Source of the DNA: a virus
Taxonomy: Duplodnaviria > Heunggongvirae > Uroviricota > Caudoviricetes
Virus record (IMG/VR): IMGVR_UViG_2541047821_000007
Length of the DNA: 41,934 nucleotides
Reading direction: 5' to 3' (one strand)
Shown here: positions 3,308-38,384 of the stretch, one piece after another
Position numbering within the stretch: position 1 is the first letter of the stretch
Layout: each line of letters opens with the position of its first letter
The notes under the pieces: generated by a model
Seen by the model: only the letters and a program-made list of their open reading frames with translations
Databases searched by the model: none
What the model was told of the DNA's origin: nothing
Translations under genes and position numbers: made by a program

Positions 3308-3883
3308 CTACGGCAGTGCTGGCCATTCAATATCCTGTGCAGTTGACGTATCAACACGGTTCAGCAATACCCGATACTTTTTCCATGCTTCCAGCAACGA
3401 GATTTCTTCCTCCGTTGCAATTTCCAGATCTGCAGCATCCTGAAGCGGCGCAATATGCTCACTGGCTACCTGCATCAGGTTGTTTTTTGTTTCTTCCGCC
3501 TCCCGGATCCGGAACAGTTTTTCTGCTTCCGTATCCTTCACCCAGGCTGTGCCGTTCCACTTCTGAAACTCCCCTTCCGGGGATAACCAGGTGACATTTT
3601 CCGGTAATGGGCCAAGTTCAGAAATAAATAACGCGTCGCCGGAAGCCACGTCATAGACGGTTTTACCCCGATGATCTTCAACGAGATGCCACGATGCCTC
3701 ATCACTGTTGAAAACAGCCACGAAGCCAGCCGGAATATCTGGCGGTGCAATATCGGTACTGTTTGCTGGCAGACCTGTATGAGGCGGAATATATGCGTCA
3801 CCTTCACCAATAAATTCATTAGTTCCTGCCAGCAGATTATAAATTTTTATGGTCCGTGGTTGTTCACTCATTCTGAATGCCAT
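3308..3883 (-). CDS. tfaQ: tail fibre assembly protein (Tfa)
   Basis: 191 aa, [26 protein letters not shown]...; start overlaps stf stop; conserved Tfa C-terminus. Confidence 0.85.
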
Positions 3884-28054: not shown

Positions 28055-28325
28055 GATGTTACCGTAGTATGTGAGTATCCATCGAATAGATACCAAGCAA
28101 AAAAGCTCCCGAAGGAGCCTTCATTTTCACTTTTTTAAATCCAACGACAGACGGCTGGCATTTAAGTATTGTGAAATATTATCAAATGTAATCATCATTG
28201 ATTTACAAAAGATACATTTTGCCCCGAAAGGATTCATGTCAGAAACATCAAAAGATGATGTTCTATACTGGGAACCATGACAACACGGGCATCTAAAGTG
28301 AATATGGTTTGTAATATTGTCTACC

Positions 28326-28538
28326 TCAAAGCGCCACTACATGAACAGCGGCAGGACCTTTAGGTCCGTTCTCAATACCAAATTCAACTTCCTGATTCTC
28401 AGTTAATGTTTTGAAATCGTTGCTCTGAATTGCTGAGAAATGGACAAACACATCTTTGCTGCCATCTTTCGGCGTGATGAAACCAAAACCTTTTTCAGGG
28501 TTAAACCATTTCACTAAACCAGTCATTTTGTTAGACAT
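28326..28538 (-). CDS. cspI: cold-shock protein CspI
   Basis: 70 aa; KGFGFI and VFVHF RNA-binding motifs. Confidence 0.9.
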
Positions 28539-28901
28539 AATTATTACCTTTTGAAGAAATTAGCCCTTGGGCAGAATGGTCCGAAAAAAAATATCAGAGA
28601 GAAAAACCAACAAGGAAATCTCAAGAGGTACAAATAATAAAATTATAACAATGACTGCTTCAGATAAATTTGTAACAAACCAGAACACCATTAACGCATG
28701 ATTAACCACCCATAGCAAGGATTACTTTTGTAAAGAAAAACACAGCAATGAAAGAATAGCTTTATTTATTAATAATAACGTGTCATTCTGATTAAGACCT
28801 TTTATCTTACCCTTAAGATTTCAGGAATTTTGGCTCATGGAAGAGTCCTTTTTATTTAAATTTTACATTCCGCGATGTAAATGTTCCGATTTAATATTAC
28901 C

Positions 28902-30930: not shown

Positions 30931-31210
30931 AGATTGTGGTGCTTTTTGTGGGAGTCATCCACTTACGCACTTTGTTTTGCCATGCCAGCAGTTAGCTTCT
31001 GCTGTAAAACTATTCATGCAGCAAACCTGCACTTCACCACAATGGTTAGCATACTTTTCCTGATTAAGATTTTGCCAAATATGCTAGCCATTGTTTCATG
31101 TATTGGACCTCCTTACTTTTTATTAAAGAGATCCAATATTCACTACTCTGTCCGTATCTCTACTCAGGCATCAGCCTTCTTCGTTATCGTATACAGACGA
31201 GCGATGAATT

Positions 31211-31426
31211 TTAATCAGTAATGATGACATTTGCTGCTGCAGGACCTTTAGCACCACTCTCTATAGAGAAGGTAACCTTTTGACCTTCAAATAAGGTTCG
31301 ATAATTATCATTCTGAATCGCAGAAAAATGCACAAACACATCTTTACTACCATCAACAGGAGAAATAAAGCCGAAACCTTTATCAGCGTTAAACCATTTT
31401 ACTAAACCAGTCATTTTATTTGACAT
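31211..31426 (-). CDS. cspB: cold-shock protein CspB
   Basis: 71 aa; [23 protein letters not shown]... Confidence 0.9.
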
Positions 31427-31726
31427 TCTACATTCCTTAACTTGAGCCTTTCGGCATAAATGGTTTGCATAACAGAAACGACTTCGTACTTAATTGGAGA
31501 GACTCAAAGAAGGAATAAGTGAATAACACCTGAAATGAGAACTGCTTTAGTAAACTACTTCGTATATCGTCTGTTCTTCAAACCGACGCAATCATTAACG
31601 CATAGTTGAACATATGAAGCAATGTTTATTTTAGACATCCAGCCATCTTCAACCCCATCAAAAAACTATAGCTTTCTTCAGGAACGTGTGTATAGTGCGC
31701 CAAGTTATCAGTATTAAGGAATTTTT

Positions 31727-34774: not shown

Positions 34775-34890
34775 CAGAATCCTTCCGGATAATTAGCTCT
34801 CCCCTTTAAGGGACCATCCCTCTTATCCCTGCGCGCTACTTAAGTATTTTTGATTCTATTCCGGCACCGTCCAGATCTTCAAACGCGTTG

Positions 34891-34922
34891 AAAATAAAAA
34901 CAAAAACCCGCCGAAGCGGGTT
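34891..34922 (-). terminator. intrinsic terminator downstream of hok
   Basis: AACCCGC-TTCG-GCGGGTT followed by TTTTGTTTTTATTTT on the minus strand. Confidence 0.65.
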
Positions 34923-34961
34923 AAGTGCGGGTGCGTTGAGGATGCCTGCCACATCAGAGGT

Positions 34962-34983
34962 GGCGAGGGATTTCTCCCTCGCC
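34962..34983 (-). promoter_or_regulatory. perfect palindrome stem-loop just after the hok stop
   Basis: GGCGAGGGA-TTTC-TCCCTCGCC. Confidence 0.5.
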
Positions 34984-34990
34984 GGGTCTC

Positions 34991-35146
34991 TTACTCCTCA
35001 GGTTCGTAAGCTGTGAAGACAGCGACCTCCGTCTGGCCGGTTCGGATTCGTACCTCGCAGAGGTCTTTCCTCGTTACCAGTGCCGTCACTATGACGGTTA
35101 AACAGATGACGATCAGGGCGATTAACATCGCCTTTTGCTGCTTCAT
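34991..35146 (-). CDS. hokD: Hok-family type I toxin
   Basis: 51 aa: MKQQKAMLIALIVICLTVIVTALVTRKDLCEVRIRTGQTEVAVFTAYEPEE; GGAG 9 nt upstream. Confidence 0.85.
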   Translation of the reverse strand: MKQQKAMLIALIVICLTVIVTALVTRKDLCEVRIRTGQTEVAVFTAYEPEE

Positions 35147-35361
35147 AGCCTGCTTCTCCTTGCCTTTCGGCTCGTAAGAGGCTAACCTACATGTGTCTAG
35201 CATGAAATTGGCCTCAGATTAATGTTAAGCGTCTTGCAGGACGCGTAATGTTAACTGGGGCTTTTCTCTATCTGCCTTTGGTGTTCATGCCCGAGGCAGA
35301 TAGCCTCAAGCACCCGCAGCCATTCTACTTAACTACCGTTACCTCGCCAATATGAAATCAG

Positions 35362-35565
35362 TCAGAAAGGCGATCCATAAGAACAATAGCAAGACAATAA
35401 ATCGCCATTACAGCCGTAATAGCCAGCGCACATTTGAGAACCAGCACCACAACCTCCTGTATTGGACGTAGACCAGTCCTGATGAATATGAGGCTGTCTC
35501 GTCAGTGATTCAATACAACTATTGGGTATAGTTTCTCTGATTTTTTCTGTGGAAATGGGGCACAA
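35362..35565 (-). CDS. hypothetical Cys/Gly-rich 67-aa ORF
   Basis: Track ORF only; 7 Cys and Gly-rich tail; no clear RBS. Confidence 0.2.
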   Translation of the reverse strand: MCPISTEKIRETIPNSCIESLTRQPHIHQDWSTSNTGGCGAGSQMCAGYYGCNGDLLSCYCSYGSPF

Positions 35566-35879
35566 CCACTAGTCACCACCAGCACTTCTTTTAATACGCA
35601 AAGTCCGACACAAGCTAACCTTCTAGTCCGCTTTGAGCGAAAAACAGCCATAATTTAGTGCCACGTATATAATGATAGAGCTATTCAAGCTAGCAATTCA
35701 CATGTAAAAATTCAGAGGGTAGAAGCACATAGTTATAAATGTTGGCTCCATCGACAAATTGCGGTCTCAAGTACATTTATTAATGTTGCCCCCGCATTAA
35801 CAAATCATCAAGGTGACGACATGGGGTGATGCTGCCAACTTACTGATTTAGTGTATGATGGTGTTTTTGAGGTGCTCCA

Positions 35880-36155
35880 GTGGCTTCTGTTTCTATCAGC
35901 TGTCCCTCCTGTTCAGCTACTGACGGGGTGGTGCGTAACGGCAAAAGCACCGCCGGACATCAGCGCTATCTCTGCTCTCACTGCCGTAAAACATGGCAAC
36001 TGCAGTTCACTTACACCGCTTCTCAACCCGGTACGCACCAGAAAATCATTGATATGGCCATGAATGGCGTTGGATGCCGGGCAACCGCCCGCATTATGGG
36101 CGTTGGCCTCAACACGATTTTCCGCCATTTAAAAAACTCAGGCCGCAGTCGGTAA
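35880..36155 (+). CDS. insA: IS1 InsA
   Basis: 91 aa, [46 protein letters not shown]... Confidence 0.95.
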
Positions 36156-36577
36156 CCTCGCGCATACAGCCGGGCAGTGACGTCATCGTCTGCGCGGAAA
36201 TGGACGAACAGTGGGGATACGTCGGGGCTAAATCGCGCCAGCGCTGGCTGTTTTACGCGTATGACAGGCTCCGGAAGACGGTTGTTGCGCACGTATTCGG
36301 TGAACGCACTATGGCGACGCTGGGGCGTCTTATGAGCCTGCTGTCACCCTTTGACGTGGTGATATGGATGACGGATGGCTGGCCGCTGTATGAATCCCGC
36401 CTGAAGGGAAAGCTGCACGTAATCAGCAAGCGATATACGCAGCGAATTGAGCGGCATAACCTGAATCTGAGGCAGCACCTGGCACGGCTGGGACGGAAGT
36501 CGCTGTCGTTCTCAAAATCGGTGGAGCTGCATGACAAAGTCATCGGGCATTATCTGAACATAAAACACTATCAATAA
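36074..36577 (+). CDS. insB: IS1 InsB (made as InsAB' by -1 frameshift at the A6C motif)
   Basis: 167-aa ORF overlapping insA; slippery TTAAAAAACTC at ~36124-36135. Confidence 0.9.
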
Positions 36578-36596
36578 GTTGGAGTCATTACCCGAC

Positions 36597-38384
36597 ATGG
36601 ACGATATTAATATCAGCCTCGACGAACTTAACACTATTGATTTATCCCCCTTAATCCAGAGTAAGCTGCCAGTTACCTGCTTTGATATCACAAAGTATCT
36701 TTCTAGCCTAGGTGATGGAAGAGCGGAGATAAGACTGCTAACCCATATTTGCGGTTTTCACTTTCGTCCCGAAAATCCACAGGTACCATTTGGTCCGTGC
36801 TTTCAAAGCAGCCAAGGTAGATCTGCAATTCCGGATGACATTAACGGGTTGTCGCTGGAGGTACTTTCTCAATTTTGCCCGACGATAGAGCTACCCGAAC
36901 TTCAAGCTCGTATTGCTGATACACTTTGGGTTCGTAAAATTGGTGGAATCCGTTTTCCTTTGCTGGCAGTCCGTGCTTATTATGCGTCCAGTATAGCTAT
37001 TATGACATCGCAAGGGACGTGGGTTAGTGCTTTAGAACGCCTAGAGCGTGCGCTTAGGCTGTGTTGTTTTTTTCGAAAGAATACTGATTTCAGGGATGAA
37101 TTTGATCAGCTTTCGGCACATCTACTAGCAGAGTATGAACGTACCAGAGAACAAGGCGATTCACCTTATCCGCTGCGACTCCTGCAACTCGATATCGACT
37201 GTAAAGTGAGTGAGCCATCTTTTATTGCCCAGGAACTCCTGTTTCTGACAAAAAACTATCTGGCTCAAAAATTATTTTCATTTGCCGTCGATGCCTGTAA
37301 AACCGCAATCACGATTGCGAATAGGTGCTGTGACAGAGATACACAGTTTGAATTCTGGCGGCTTCTTGCCGATACACATCTGGAAGAGTCAAAATTCCAA
37401 GATGGCGGTATGATTTCGGCAGCCTGCATGCAGAATGCTATTGAAGCACTGGCTAATATTCCAGGAACCCGAATAGAACGTCTTGCGCTGTATGAAGAAA
37501 TGCGTGATTACCAAATCGAATCCCGTCACCAGATGTCTATCCTTCAGTCTCCCCCTCAAGATATTAGTGAGATTGTCCATCAAGCCAAGAGTCGGGTAGT
37601 CGGAAGAGATATGTTTGATATGGTTTTCAGACTTGCGATGCTGGTCTGTCGGCCAACCAGCATTGAGAGACTTAAGGCTCAAGCAATAGAACAAAAGGCC
37701 AACAGCATAGCTTGGATGTTTGGATCAACACATATTGATCATGAGGGAATGACACTTGCTCGCATACCCGCAGGATTGGGGATTGATGATGCAAATGGGG
37801 CAGTTATTTGGCCCATAATGATGACGAGAATGCGTATCGACCATGAGTTGGCAGTAGCTGGGCAAATTATTCCTGCTACAGATGAGATCACAATGAAATA
37901 TCCAATCTCGGAGGCGTTTTTTCGCGATATGTTCATCAATCATCCCTTCATCCCGTTTGGGCATGAAGAGTTTTTCATCAAGGGTATGGTTTGCGGTTTC
38001 AATGGAGATTTTATGACGGCATGCCACGTGTTGATTCCCCAGATCGAAAATAGTCTGAGATATGTGGCTAAAATTAAAGGTGAGGAACCATCGCAGCTTC
38101 ACGGGGACGGTTCGCAAGAGCGAAATGGACTCAAGGGATTACTAGATAATCCACTGATTATTGAAGCTTTCGGCGTAGACATAATTGGCAATCTTCAGGC
38201 CTTACTGGTAGATAAAATCTATGGTGATTTACGAAATCAACTAGCTCACGGATATGTGCCTGCCGGTTACTACAATCAACCTCCCTGCATTTTTGCATGG
38301 TGGCTTGTATTGCACATTCTAATGAACCCTACGGCGAGATACTGGCAAGCCACTTATGGCCAAGAGAGTGAGGCTCAGACTTAA
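36597..38384 (+). CDS. 595-aa protein of unknown function with C-terminal HEPN-like R-x4-H motif; candidate abortive-infection/defence protein
   Basis: ATG 36597 lies inside the IS1 target duplication (track start is a TTG inside IS1); LRNQLAHG at 38232-38249; mostly helical composition, no Walker A; opposite strand to the early operon. Confidence 0.6.
   Translation: MDDINISLDELNTIDLSPLIQSKLPVTCFDITKYLSSLGDGRAEIRLLTHICGFHFRPENPQVPFGPCFQSSQGRSAIPDDINGLSLEVLSQFCPTIELPELQARIADTLWVRKIGGIRFPLLAVRAYYASSIAIMTSQGTWVSALERLERALRLCCFFRKNTDFRDEFDQLSAHLLAEYERTREQGDSPYPLRLLQLDIDCKVSEPSFIAQELLFLTKNYLAQKLFSFAVDACKTAITIANRCCDRDTQFEFWRLLADTHLEESKFQDGGMISAACMQNAIEALANIPGTRIERLALYEEMRDYQIESRHQMSILQSPPQDISEIVHQAKSRVVGRDMFDMVFRLAMLVCRPTSIERLKAQAIEQKANSIAWMFGSTHIDHEGMTLARIPAGLGIDDANGAVIWPIMMTRMRIDHELAVAGQIIPATDEITMKYPISEAFFRDMFINHPFIPFGHEEFFIKGMVCGFNGDFMTACHVLIPQIENSLRYVAKIKGEEPSQLHGDGSQERNGLKGLLDNPLIIEAFGVDIIGNLQALLVDKIYGDLRNQLAHGYVPAGYYNQPPCIFAWWLVLHILMNPTARYWQATYGQESEAQT

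What the first reader, a model, noticed from the sequence alone, without database searches (positions are those of the whole stretch)
34891..35310. hokD-type toxin locus without relBE, with hok-style RNA structures
A 51-aa Hok toxin is present, but the genes on either side are an unassigned 67-aa Cys/Gly-rich ORF and an unassigned 83-aa ORF rather than relB/relE. Downstream are a perfect GC palindrome and an intrinsic terminator; the leader has a 10-bp inverted repeat (CTATCTGCCT ... AGGCAGATAG, ~35268-35303) and an in-frame upstream ATG (35203). This is consistent with a self-contained hok/sok-type module whose antisense Sok-like RNA would come from the plus strand near 35200-35300; I could not pin its promoter.
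Basis: partly seen in the sequence, partly recalled or inferred. Interest (0 to 1): 0.5.

Follow-up and report, generated by a model that had tools for sequence, protein, structure and literature searches.

The report
Complete prophage hok/sok toxin-antitoxin module
This is an ordinary, complete copy of the well-known hok/sok RNA-controlled toxin-antitoxin cassette in a Qin-like lambdoid prophage of E. coli, the usual intact form of the locus that laboratory K-12 carries in truncated form behind relBE.

Summary
A 51-aa Hok toxin, identical to K-12 HokD, lies at 35146-34991 (-). It has the in-frame upstream ATG (a 70-aa Mok-type frame), the 10-bp leader hairpin, the GC hairpin and the terminator.

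The interpretation, a self-contained hok/sok module, is also right, and every canonical element can be placed:
- **hok promoter:** 35350-35322.
- **Leader:** full-length match to Rfam RF01794 (116 bits, cut-off 59).
- **5'-3' closure:** the 5' end (tac, 35315-35304) pairs with the 3' end (fbi, 34941-34929).
- **Predicted switch:** removing the 3' end gives tac/ucb and SD/dcb pairing, as published for plasmid R1.
- **Sok-like antisense RNA:** 77 nt at 35195-35271 (+), promoter TTGCCT-17-TAACCT at 35160-35188, placed by homology to annotated sokC and to tested sokW.

Two details are wrong. The 83-aa neighbour is Rem, which flanks hokD in K-12 too. The 67-aa Cys/Gly ORF is frameshifted in relatives and probably not a gene.

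The arrangement is common. The leader occurs in 4285 of 5426 complete E. coli genomes, and 77 of 80 viral contigs with identical HokD have it. It is 96% identical to the leader of the characterised hokW-sokW locus. The K-12 relBE-hokD layout is the derived exception, as already published. Already known; low interest.

The parts
35322..35350 (-). hok mRNA promoter: -35 TTGGCG (35350-35345), 17-nt spacer, -10 TAGAAT (35327-35322). The predicted start is near 35315.
   Evidence: Promoter scan. The -10 hexamer and the start region are conserved in hokW and hokC. The Rfam model begins at 35315.
34897..35315 (-). Predicted full-length hok mRNA, about 419 nt.
   Evidence: Bounded by the promoter and terminator. 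MFE -175.1 kcal/mol, z = -7.8. Across 65 related sequences, 96.6% of pair cells are paired, against 33-41% when the partners are slid.
35304..35315 (-). tac element: the 5' end GGGUGCUUGAGG. It pairs with fbi in the full-length RNA and with ucb after 3' truncation.
   Evidence: Folds. The helix is 100% paired in 65 sequences, with 10 of 12 pairs invariant.
35268..35303 (-). First leader hairpin (CUAUCUGCCU ...
   Evidence: One pair shows a compensatory A-U to G-C change in 4 sequences.
35255..35263 (-). ucb, the anti-Shine-Dalgarno box (AAGCCCCAG). It sequesters the mok SD in the full-length fold and pairs with tac in the truncated fold.
   Evidence: Folds. The element names follow PMC9841398.
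35212..35215 (-). mok Shine-Dalgarno GAGG, 8 nt upstream of the mok ATG.
   Evidence: Read from the sequence. Invariant in 65 related loci.
34991..35203 (-). mok-type reading frame: 70 aa, in frame with hok, the same layout as MokC and MokW.
   Evidence: ORF list. Annotated mokC has the same layout. PHROG 251 'MokW-like host killing', E = 7.6e-33. MokW and MokC alignment.
35178..35182 (-). dcb (GCCUC). It pairs with the mok SD region in the 3'-truncated fold.
   Evidence: truncations to 34950 and 34945.
34991..35146 (-). hok toxin gene: 51 aa, identical to K-12 HokD.
   Evidence: 47/51 identical to HokW and 28/52 to R1 Hok.
34962..34983 (-). GC-rich 9-bp hairpin just after the stop codon, the likely 3' end-protecting stem of the processed mRNA.
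   Evidence: Its pairs stay paired through G-U, A-U and G-C changes. The role is inferred from R1 (PMC9841398).
34929..34941 (-). fbi, the fold-back inhibition element (CCUCAACGCACCC). It is complementary to tac with one bulged C.
   Evidence: Pair table. 100% paired in 65 sequences.
34897..34922 (-). Intrinsic terminator of hok mRNA: stem 34922-34905 followed by a T run.
   Evidence: Compensatory changes occur in the stem.
35160..35188 (+). Sok promoter: -35 TTGCCT (35160-35165), 17-nt spacer, -10 TAACCT (35183-35188).
   Evidence: Alignment to the sokC upstream region and to R1. It matches the hokW probe sequence except for one spacer base. The hokW 'promoter-less' primers change this same hexamer (Table 2 of PMC8621323). 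The generic promoter scan missed it because -10 matches only 3 of 6.
35195..35271 (+). Predicted Sok-like antisense RNA, about 77 nt: a short free 5' tail over the mok start, a long stem-loop and a U-rich 3' end.
   Evidence: The ends are mapped from the annotated K-12 sokC. Fold -30.5 kcal/mol, z = -5.25. It carries an 18-nt stem extension relative to sokC, shared with hokW.

Best explanation
The locus is a complete type I toxin-antitoxin cassette of the hok/sok family. It is the hokD/hokW allele carried in the early-right region of Qin-like and other lambdoid prophages. The proposed mechanism follows.

1. A weak-to-moderate promoter (35350-35322) makes a roughly 419-nt hok mRNA.
2. The 5' end of that mRNA (tac) pairs with a box near its 3' end (fbi). 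An upstream box (ucb) covers the mok ribosome-binding site, so the full-length RNA is inert.
3. Slow 3' trimming back to the GC hairpin removes fbi.
4. tac then pairs with ucb, the mok SD moves into a hairpin with dcb, and the RNA becomes both translatable and a target for Sok.
5. Sok is a roughly 77-nt unstable antisense RNA made from TTGCCT/TAACCT on the + strand (35195-35271). It pairs across the mok SD and start.
6. Blocking mok blocks the translationally coupled hok, and the duplex is degraded.
7. When Sok supply stops (loss of the element, or prophage induction), the stored processed mRNA is translated and the 51-aa Hok peptide damages the inner membrane.

Shown here: all sequence elements, their homology, and the two predicted alternative folds. 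Inferred from R1 and hokW work: transcription of both RNAs, 3' processing, mok-hok coupling, RNase III decay, and the biological role. That role is prophage retention and/or earlier lysis on induction, as reported for hokW-sokW.
For: - Toxin: Pfam HOK_GEF 81.6 bits. RefSeq names the identical protein HokD.
- Leader: Rfam RF01794 full-length hit at 35315-35141, 116 bits against a cut-off of 59. This compares with 118 bits for K-12 hokC and 87 bits for an R1-like plasmid locus, always on the hok-sense strand.
- Promoter and terminator.
- Full-length fold: tac nt 1-12 pairs with fbi at 34941-34929, and the mok SD pairs with ucb (z = -7.8).
- Truncated fold: cutting the 3' end at 34950 or 34945 gives tac/ucb and SD/dcb pairing. 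This is the published R1 switch (PMC9841398).
- Conservation: in 65 related sequences 96.6% of pair cells are paired, 7 pairs show double changes, and no shuffle out of 500 reaches either value.
- Sok: its position and promoter come from alignment to annotated sokC. Its fold has z = -5.25.
- Closest tested relative: the leader is 162/168 identical and the toxin 47/51 identical to hokW-sokW. For that locus, toxicity, Sok-promoter dependence and induction-triggered HokW synthesis were shown experimentally (PMC8621323).
- Toxicity: HokD peptide served as a toxic control in bioRxiv 10.1101/2025.08.07.668861.
- Context: Qin-like lambdoid prophage, gene order Q-type antiterminator / DUF968 / rem / hokD / DUF4209 / DUF977 / replication / cro-cI.
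Against: - No expression data exist for this window. The Sok promoter is a poor consensus match (-10 matches 3 of 6), and the generic scan did not call it.
- The tac/fbi helix is invariant in the set examined, so it is conserved but carries no covariation of its own.
- Truncation at 34958 did not give tac/ucb pairing, so the predicted switch depends on where processing stops.
- Chromosomal hok loci tested by Pedersen and Gerdes did not mediate post-segregational killing (summarised), so activity of a chromosomal prophage copy is not guaranteed.
- The biological role reported for hokW (a two-fold effect on phage release) is modest and comes from one study.
Confidence: 0.92

Rival explanations
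1. The locus is structurally complete but functionally silent. On this reading it is a decaying remnant like the K-12 chromosomal hok loci: it neither kills nor stabilises anything and is simply carried along with the prophage.
For: Chromosomal hokA, hokB and hokC loci failed to mediate post-segregational killing or rifampicin activation (summarised in bioRxiv 10.1101/2025.08.07.668861). Other K-12 hok loci are regarded as inactivated (PMC12214031). The prophage here has taken an IS1 hit 500 bp away.
Against: No inactivating lesion is visible. The promoters, tac, ucb, SD, mok ATG, dcb, hok ORF, fbi and terminator are all intact. The module from about 35330 to 34905 is much more conserved than its flanks across 65 distinct loci. 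Base pairs are maintained by compensatory changes. The 96%-identical hokW-sokW leader drives a working system (PMC8621323).
Confidence: 0.06
2. The locus is a derivative of the K-12 relB-relE-hokD operon that lost relBE by deletion and acquired new neighbours. This is the reading suggested by the finding's title, 'hokD-type locus without relBE'.
For: The Hok protein is identical to K-12 HokD. The downstream flank (rem, the 92-aa ORF, ydfU, ydfT) is the same as in K-12. K-12 matches window 34850-35160 at 99.4%.
Against: The sequence upstream of 35160 is not novel filler. It is the canonical hok leader, homologous to hokC, hokW and R1, so it must predate the relBE junction. The K-12 hokD region gives no RF01794 hit. 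Of 80 viral contigs with the identical HokD, 77 have the leader and 2 have relE. The literature states that relBE integration truncated an ancestral hokD frame of about 70 codons (PMC6379469).
Confidence: 0.02

Closest known systems
hokW-sokW of Sakai prophage 5 / 933W-type Stx2 phages (Takada et al. 2021, PMC8621323)
   Same: - Lambdoid-prophage location.
- 70-aa in-frame Mok-type frame.
- Leader 162/168 identical, including the 18-nt extension of the Sok stem-loop.
- Identical Sok -35 and -10 hexamers.
- Toxin 47/51 identical.

   Different: - The four C-terminal toxin differences: TAYEPEE here, VDYESEK in HokW.
- Six of the few leader differences cluster in the 19 nt around the mok start and Sok 5' tail: GGCCAATTTCATGCTAGAC here, GGCTCAATCCATGCTGAAC in hokW.
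- The flanking phage genes and the sequence downstream of fbi differ.

K-12 hokD (relF) in the relB-relE-hokD operon of the Qin prophage
   Same: Identical 51-aa protein, identical 3' UTR (GC hairpin, fbi, terminator), and the same downstream genes rem / ydfU / ydfT. The two are 99.4% identical over window 34850-35160.
   Different: K-12 keeps only 14 nt upstream of the hok ATG. The hok promoter, tac, ucb, mok start, Sok gene and Sok -10 are replaced by the 3' end of a relBE cassette, and there is no RF01794 hit. K-12 hokD therefore depends on the relBE promoter and has no antitoxin RNA. The window copy is autonomous.
hokC/sokC (gef) of E. coli K-12
   Same: In-frame MokC layout, leader homologous throughout (118 of 140 aligned bases identical), RF01794 score 118 bits, and an annotated Sok RNA that maps onto 35195-35271. 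The toxin is 41/51 identical.
   Different: sokC lacks the 18-nt stem extension (59 nt against about 77 nt). In K-12 an IS186 sits just downstream of hokC, so the 3' part including fbi is missing from the alignment.
hok/sok (parB) of plasmid R1
   Same: The same set of elements and the same predicted two-state RNA switch: tac/fbi plus SD/ucb, changing to tac/ucb plus SD/dcb. The Sok promoter sits at the same place (R1-like TTGCGC / TATCCT against TTGCCT / TAACCT). RF01794 hits both.
   Different: The toxin is only 28/52 identical. The replicon is a plasmid with a demonstrated post-segregational killing role. Here the element is a prophage, and that role is untested.

Membership tests
[quoted passage not shown] | Small hydrophobic toxin of the Hok/Gef family | tested here: met
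   Pfam PF01848, 81.6 bits against a cut-off of 22. PHROG 251 'MokW-like host killing'. Identical to RefSeq HokD.
[quoted passage not shown] | Overlapping upstream mok reading frame with its own Shine-Dalgarno, through which hok is translated | tested here: met
   ATG at 35203 with GAGG 8 nt upstream gives a 70-aa frame, as in annotated mokC. The ATG and SD are kept in the related loci, although in 11 of 76 the simple in-frame scan found no ATG. Translational coupling itself cannot be tested here.
[quoted passage not shown] | Conserved hok mRNA leader sequence and structure | tested here: met
   RF01794 positions 1-157 of 157, 116 bits against a gathering score of 59, E = 6.9e-26. Control hits on hokC and an R1-like locus, and no hit on K-12 hokD.
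[quoted passage not shown] | Long-range 5'-3' pairing (tac/fbi) that closes the full-length mRNA | tested here: met
   In the minimum-energy and centroid folds, nt 1-12 pair with 34941-34929. The helix is 100% paired in 65 sequences, but it is nearly invariant, so there is no covariation.
[quoted passage not shown] | Alternative tac/ucb and mok-SD/dcb pairing after 3' processing | tested here: met
   Predicted for 3' ends at 34950 and 34945, but not for 34958. This is prediction only. The real processing site is unknown.
[quoted passage not shown] | cis-encoded antisense Sok RNA with its own promoter inside the leader, complementary to the mok initiation region | tested here: met
   Homology to annotated sokC and to the R1 sok promoter. 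The hexamers are identical to those of the experimentally mutated sokW promoter. The fold is a stable terminator-type stem-loop with a U tail, z = -5.25. Transcription was not measured.
[quoted passage not shown] | Toxin kills or arrests the cell and Sok RNA neutralises it | not testable with these tools
   Rests on published work: HokD peptide is toxic (bioRxiv 10.1101/2025.08.07.668861), and hokW-sokW was shown to be a working pair (PMC8621323).
K-12-type relB-relE-hokD (relBEF) operon | hokD lies directly downstream of relE, is transcribed from the relBE promoter, and has no hok leader or Sok gene | tested here: not met
   There is no relB or relE in the window near the locus. Homology to K-12 stops at 35160, and upstream is the canonical leader.

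The most novel reading that the evidence does not exclude
Among prophage loci that encode the very same HokD peptide, the few nucleotides around the mok start, which form the free 5' tail of Sok, are one of two variation hot spots. There are 15 haplotypes in a 17-nt window against a leader median of 6. The local hairpin is kept by compensating changes. This could mean that co-resident lambdoid prophages diversify the Sok recognition tail into orthogonal specificity classes. Each prophage's antitoxin would then protect only against its own toxin mRNA, giving element-specific addiction or induction signalling. The evidence does not exclude this, but it is thin. The 3' GC hairpin is equally variable. 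Only two same-genome pairs could be compared, one with different tails and one with identical tails.
Probability: 0.25. Interest if true: 0.35.

Novelty: already known. Interest (0 to 1): 0.1.

Why it matters
It matters little as a discovery. The cassette type, its RNA mechanism and its presence in lambdoid prophages are all published.

It has some practical value for annotation. RefSeq labels only the 51-aa hokD CDS here and leaves mok, the leader and the Sok RNA unannotated. The name hokD also invites the wrong expectation of a relBE partner.

The comparison gives a clean picture of the K-12 locus. It is a truncation whose junction lies 14 nt upstream of the hok ATG. The autonomous form is the common one, with the leader present in 4285 of 5426 complete E. 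coli genomes.

Tried and rejected
- **67-aa Cys/Gly-rich ORF (35565-35362) as a gene or partner:** rejected. It has no Pfam, PHROG or NCBIfam hit. It is not annotated by RefSeq in identical DNA. A 1-nt indel destroys the frame in three relatives at 91-93% identity. Its Cys/Gly richness is what one gets from reading the hydrophobic 30-aa ORF in another frame.
- **83-aa ORF as a replacement for relBE:** rejected. It is Rem, PHROG 340, and lies downstream of hokD in K-12 as well.
- **'relBE was lost':** rejected in favour of 'relBE was inserted in K-12' (PMC6379469).
- **Generic promoter scan for the Sok promoter:** found nothing on the + strand. The promoter was placed by homology instead.
- **Covariation test of tac/fbi:** uninformative, because the helix is almost invariant in the 65 sequences, all chosen for a near-identical toxin. 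More divergent family members were not aligned.
- **Truncation at 34958:** did not reproduce the tac/ucb switch.
- **Family searches for the 30-aa hydrophobic ORF:** gave nothing.
- **Searches not spent:** the large protein-database searches, structure prediction, and the metagenome and genome scans. The identity was already settled.

Full report
**What is in the sequence**

On the minus strand there is a 70-codon open frame, 35203-34991. Its last 51 codons (35146-34991) are MKQQKAMLIALIVICLTVIVTALVTRKDLCEVRIRTGQTEVAVFTAYEPEE. This matches Pfam HOK_GEF at 81.6 bits against a cut-off of 22. RefSeq names the same protein HokD, WP_000813254.1, both in a strain with DNA identical to the window and in a K-12 laboratory strain.

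- the upstream in-frame ATG at 35203;
- the 10-bp inverted repeat at 35303-35294 / 35277-35268;
- a 9-bp GC hairpin at 34983-34962;
- a terminator stem at 34922-34905 followed by a T run.

**The RNA part**

A scan of the whole window against Rfam gives a full-length match to RF01794 ('sok') at 35315-35141 on the minus strand, at 116 bits (gathering score 59, E = 6.9e-26).

The strand needs a comment. The same model hits the hok-sense strand in the K-12 hokC/sokC locus, where sokC is annotated on the opposite strand. It also hits the hok-sense strand in an R1-like plasmid locus. The model therefore describes the hok mRNA leader, and the real Sok RNA is its complement. The K-12 relE-hokD region gives no hit.

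A sigma-70-like promoter sits directly upstream of the model's first base: TTGGCG, 17 nt, TAGAAT, at 35350-35322. From there to the terminator the transcript is about 419 nt. It folds at -175.1 kcal/mol, z = -7.8 against shuffles.

**The two predicted RNA states**

In the minimum-energy and centroid structures of the full-length RNA:
- nt 1-12 (35315-35304, GGGUGCUUGAGG) pair with 34941-34929 (CCUCAACGCACCC);
- the mok Shine-Dalgarno GAGG (35215-35212) is held by an upstream box at 35263-35255.

When the 3' end is cut back to 34950 or 34945, the predicted structure changes:
- the 5' end now pairs with that upstream box;
- the SD region pairs with GCCUC at 35182-35178.

These are the tac/fbi plus SD/ucb state and the tac/ucb plus SD/dcb state described for hok of plasmid R1 (PMC9841398). 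Cutting at 34958 did not give the switch, so the prediction depends on the true processing site.

**The antisense RNA**

Alignment of the plus strand to the annotated K-12 sokC and its upstream region maps the Sok 5' end to G35195 and the 3' end to about 35271. It places a promoter at TTGCCT (35160-35165), 17 nt, TAACCT (35183-35188). The R1-like locus has TTGCGC / TATCCT at the same place.

The hokW-sokW paper gives a probe covering this promoter that matches the window except for one spacer base. Its 'promoter-less' primers replace this same hexamer (Table 2 of PMC8621323).

The 77-nt candidate folds into a free 5' tail, a long stem-loop and a U-rich end, at -30.5 kcal/mol, z = -5.25. It covers the mok SD and start codon. 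The generic promoter scan did not call this promoter, because the -10 hexamer matches the consensus in only 3 of 6 positions. Its placement therefore rests on homology.

**Conservation**

I fetched 80 viral contigs that encode the identical HokD peptide. Of these, 77 carry this leader, 2 carry relE upstream and 1 is neither.

Across 65 distinct sequences, the block from about 35330 to 34905 is strongly conserved while both flanks vary. This marks the cassette boundaries.

On an alignment of 65 sequences, the window's predicted structure is 96.6% paired, against 33-41% when the partners are slid. Seven pairs show changes on both sides, against 1.4 expected from shuffles. The compensatory changes fall in the first hairpin, the Sok stem-loop region and the terminator. 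The tac/fbi helix is 100% paired but almost invariant, so it is conserved without covariation. The structure was derived from one member of the set, which inflates the paired fraction, as the tool itself warns.

**Context and the relBE question**

The window is a lambdoid prophage of the Qin type. On the minus strand the gene order is cro/cI region, replication genes, DUF977, then DUF4209 (on the + strand), hokD, rem, a 92-aa ORF, ydfU (DUF968), a Q-type antiterminator, cspF/cspB and lysis genes. It is 99.96% identical to the prophage of E. coli 118UI apart from one IS1.

The K-12 hokD region matches the window at 99.4%, but only from 34850 to 35160. In K-12, 14 nt upstream of the hok ATG the sequence switches to the 3' flank of relE. 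K-12 thus lacks the hok promoter, tac, ucb, the mok start, the Sok gene and most of the Sok promoter.

The missing part is homologous to hokC, hokW and R1 leaders, so the window shows the original state and K-12 the rearranged one. This is already in the literature:
- K-12 hok loci other than hokB are described as inactivated by insertion elements or genomic rearrangement (PMC12214031).

The 175-nt leader is found at 80% coverage or more in 4285 of 5426 complete E. coli genomes, with a median of two places per genome. None of the sampled hits has any annotation over it.

**The neighbours**

The 83-aa ORF (34774-34523) is Rem, a conserved phage protein of unknown function (PHROG 340). It is the downstream neighbour of hokD in K-12 as well.

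The 67-aa Cys/Gly-rich ORF (35565-35362) has no family match and is not annotated in identical RefSeq DNA. It is frameshifted by a 1-nt indel in three relatives. I do not regard it as a gene.

**Closest characterised relative and likely role**

The hokW-sokW locus of Sakai prophage 5 has a leader 162/168 identical and a toxin 47/51 identical to this one. For that locus the following were shown (PMC8621323):
- HokW is toxic;
- protection needs the sokW promoter and can be supplied in trans;
- sokW RNA disappears and HokW appears after mitomycin C in a RecA-dependent way;
- deleting the locus halves phage release.

By analogy, the most likely role here is coupling toxin release to prophage induction or loss. 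This step is inferred and was not tested here.

One further inference of mine concerns orientation. The module points the same way as the early-right operon, so read-through transcription on induction could both supply hok RNA and interfere with the convergent Sok promoter. Nothing here tests that.

**Verdict**

The Sok gene and both promoters can now be placed. The locus is a standard, very common and already described cassette, and the absence of relBE is the rule rather than an anomaly. Interest is low.

The only slightly open thread is the clustering of variation in the Sok 5' tail among loci with identical toxins. It might reflect specificity classes, but the 3' hairpin is equally variable and the sample is biased.

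Noticed in passing
window 35358-35450 (-): A 30-aa strongly hydrophobic ORF (MVLVLKCALAITAVMAIYCLAIVLMDRLSD) has a perfect AGGAGG just upstream and ends 8 nt before the hok -35 hexamer. It stays open in all six relatives compared (87-100% identity), with mostly conservative substitutions. It has no Pfam, PHROG or NCBIfam match and is not annotated in RefSeq. It could be a small membrane protein of the phage early operon, or chance.
   Followed up: partly
window 35825-36592: An IS1 copy (768 bp) with an 8-bp target duplication CGACATGG is inserted exactly at the start codon of the DUF4209 gene (36597-38384, +). This separates the gene from its ribosome-binding site and promoter. E. coli 118UI has the same prophage, 99.96% identical, without the IS1.
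   Followed up: partly
window 35141-35315 (-); L005 502-654 (-); L006 332-503 (+): The Rfam family RF01794, named 'sok antitoxin', matches the hok-sense strand in all three loci. One of them is K-12 hokC, where sokC is annotated on the other strand. The model therefore describes the hok mRNA leader, and an automatic 'sok' annotation from it would be on the wrong strand.
   Followed up: yes
window 35190-35206 and 34968-34986: Among 64 distinct viral loci encoding the identical HokD peptide, two short stretches are variation hot spots. One is the mok start and Sok 5' tail (15 haplotypes per 17 nt, against a leader median of 6). The other is the 3' GC hairpin (16 haplotypes). In the first, the local hairpin is kept by compensating changes.
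   Followed up: partly
window 35006-35008 (-), within UUACGAA: The Tyr47 codon UAC of hok sits in a UACG context. This is the kind of site at which TadA A-to-I editing recodes Tyr to Cys in hok mRNAs. Editing of K-12 hokD mRNA at about 6% is reported in PMC12214031. It was not examined here beyond reading the sequence.
   Followed up: no
window 3342-3540 (-); 28299-28684 (-); 31195-31587 (-): Other Rfam matches in the window are an IS009 RNA (220.9 bits) in the tail-gene region and two cspA-type thermoregulator leaders. The latter belong to the cspB/cspF-like cold-shock genes, as in the Qin prophage.
   Followed up: no
L012, L022, L031, L034, L048, L063, L067, L088 (leader, about 75 nt upstream of hok ATG): A subgroup of related loci has a 2-nt deletion after the mok ATG plus a 1-nt insertion further on. 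The upstream ATG is then no longer in frame with hok, and the in-frame scan found no ATG in 11 of 76 loci. Mok may therefore be in frame or out of frame in different alleles of the same cassette.
   Followed up: no
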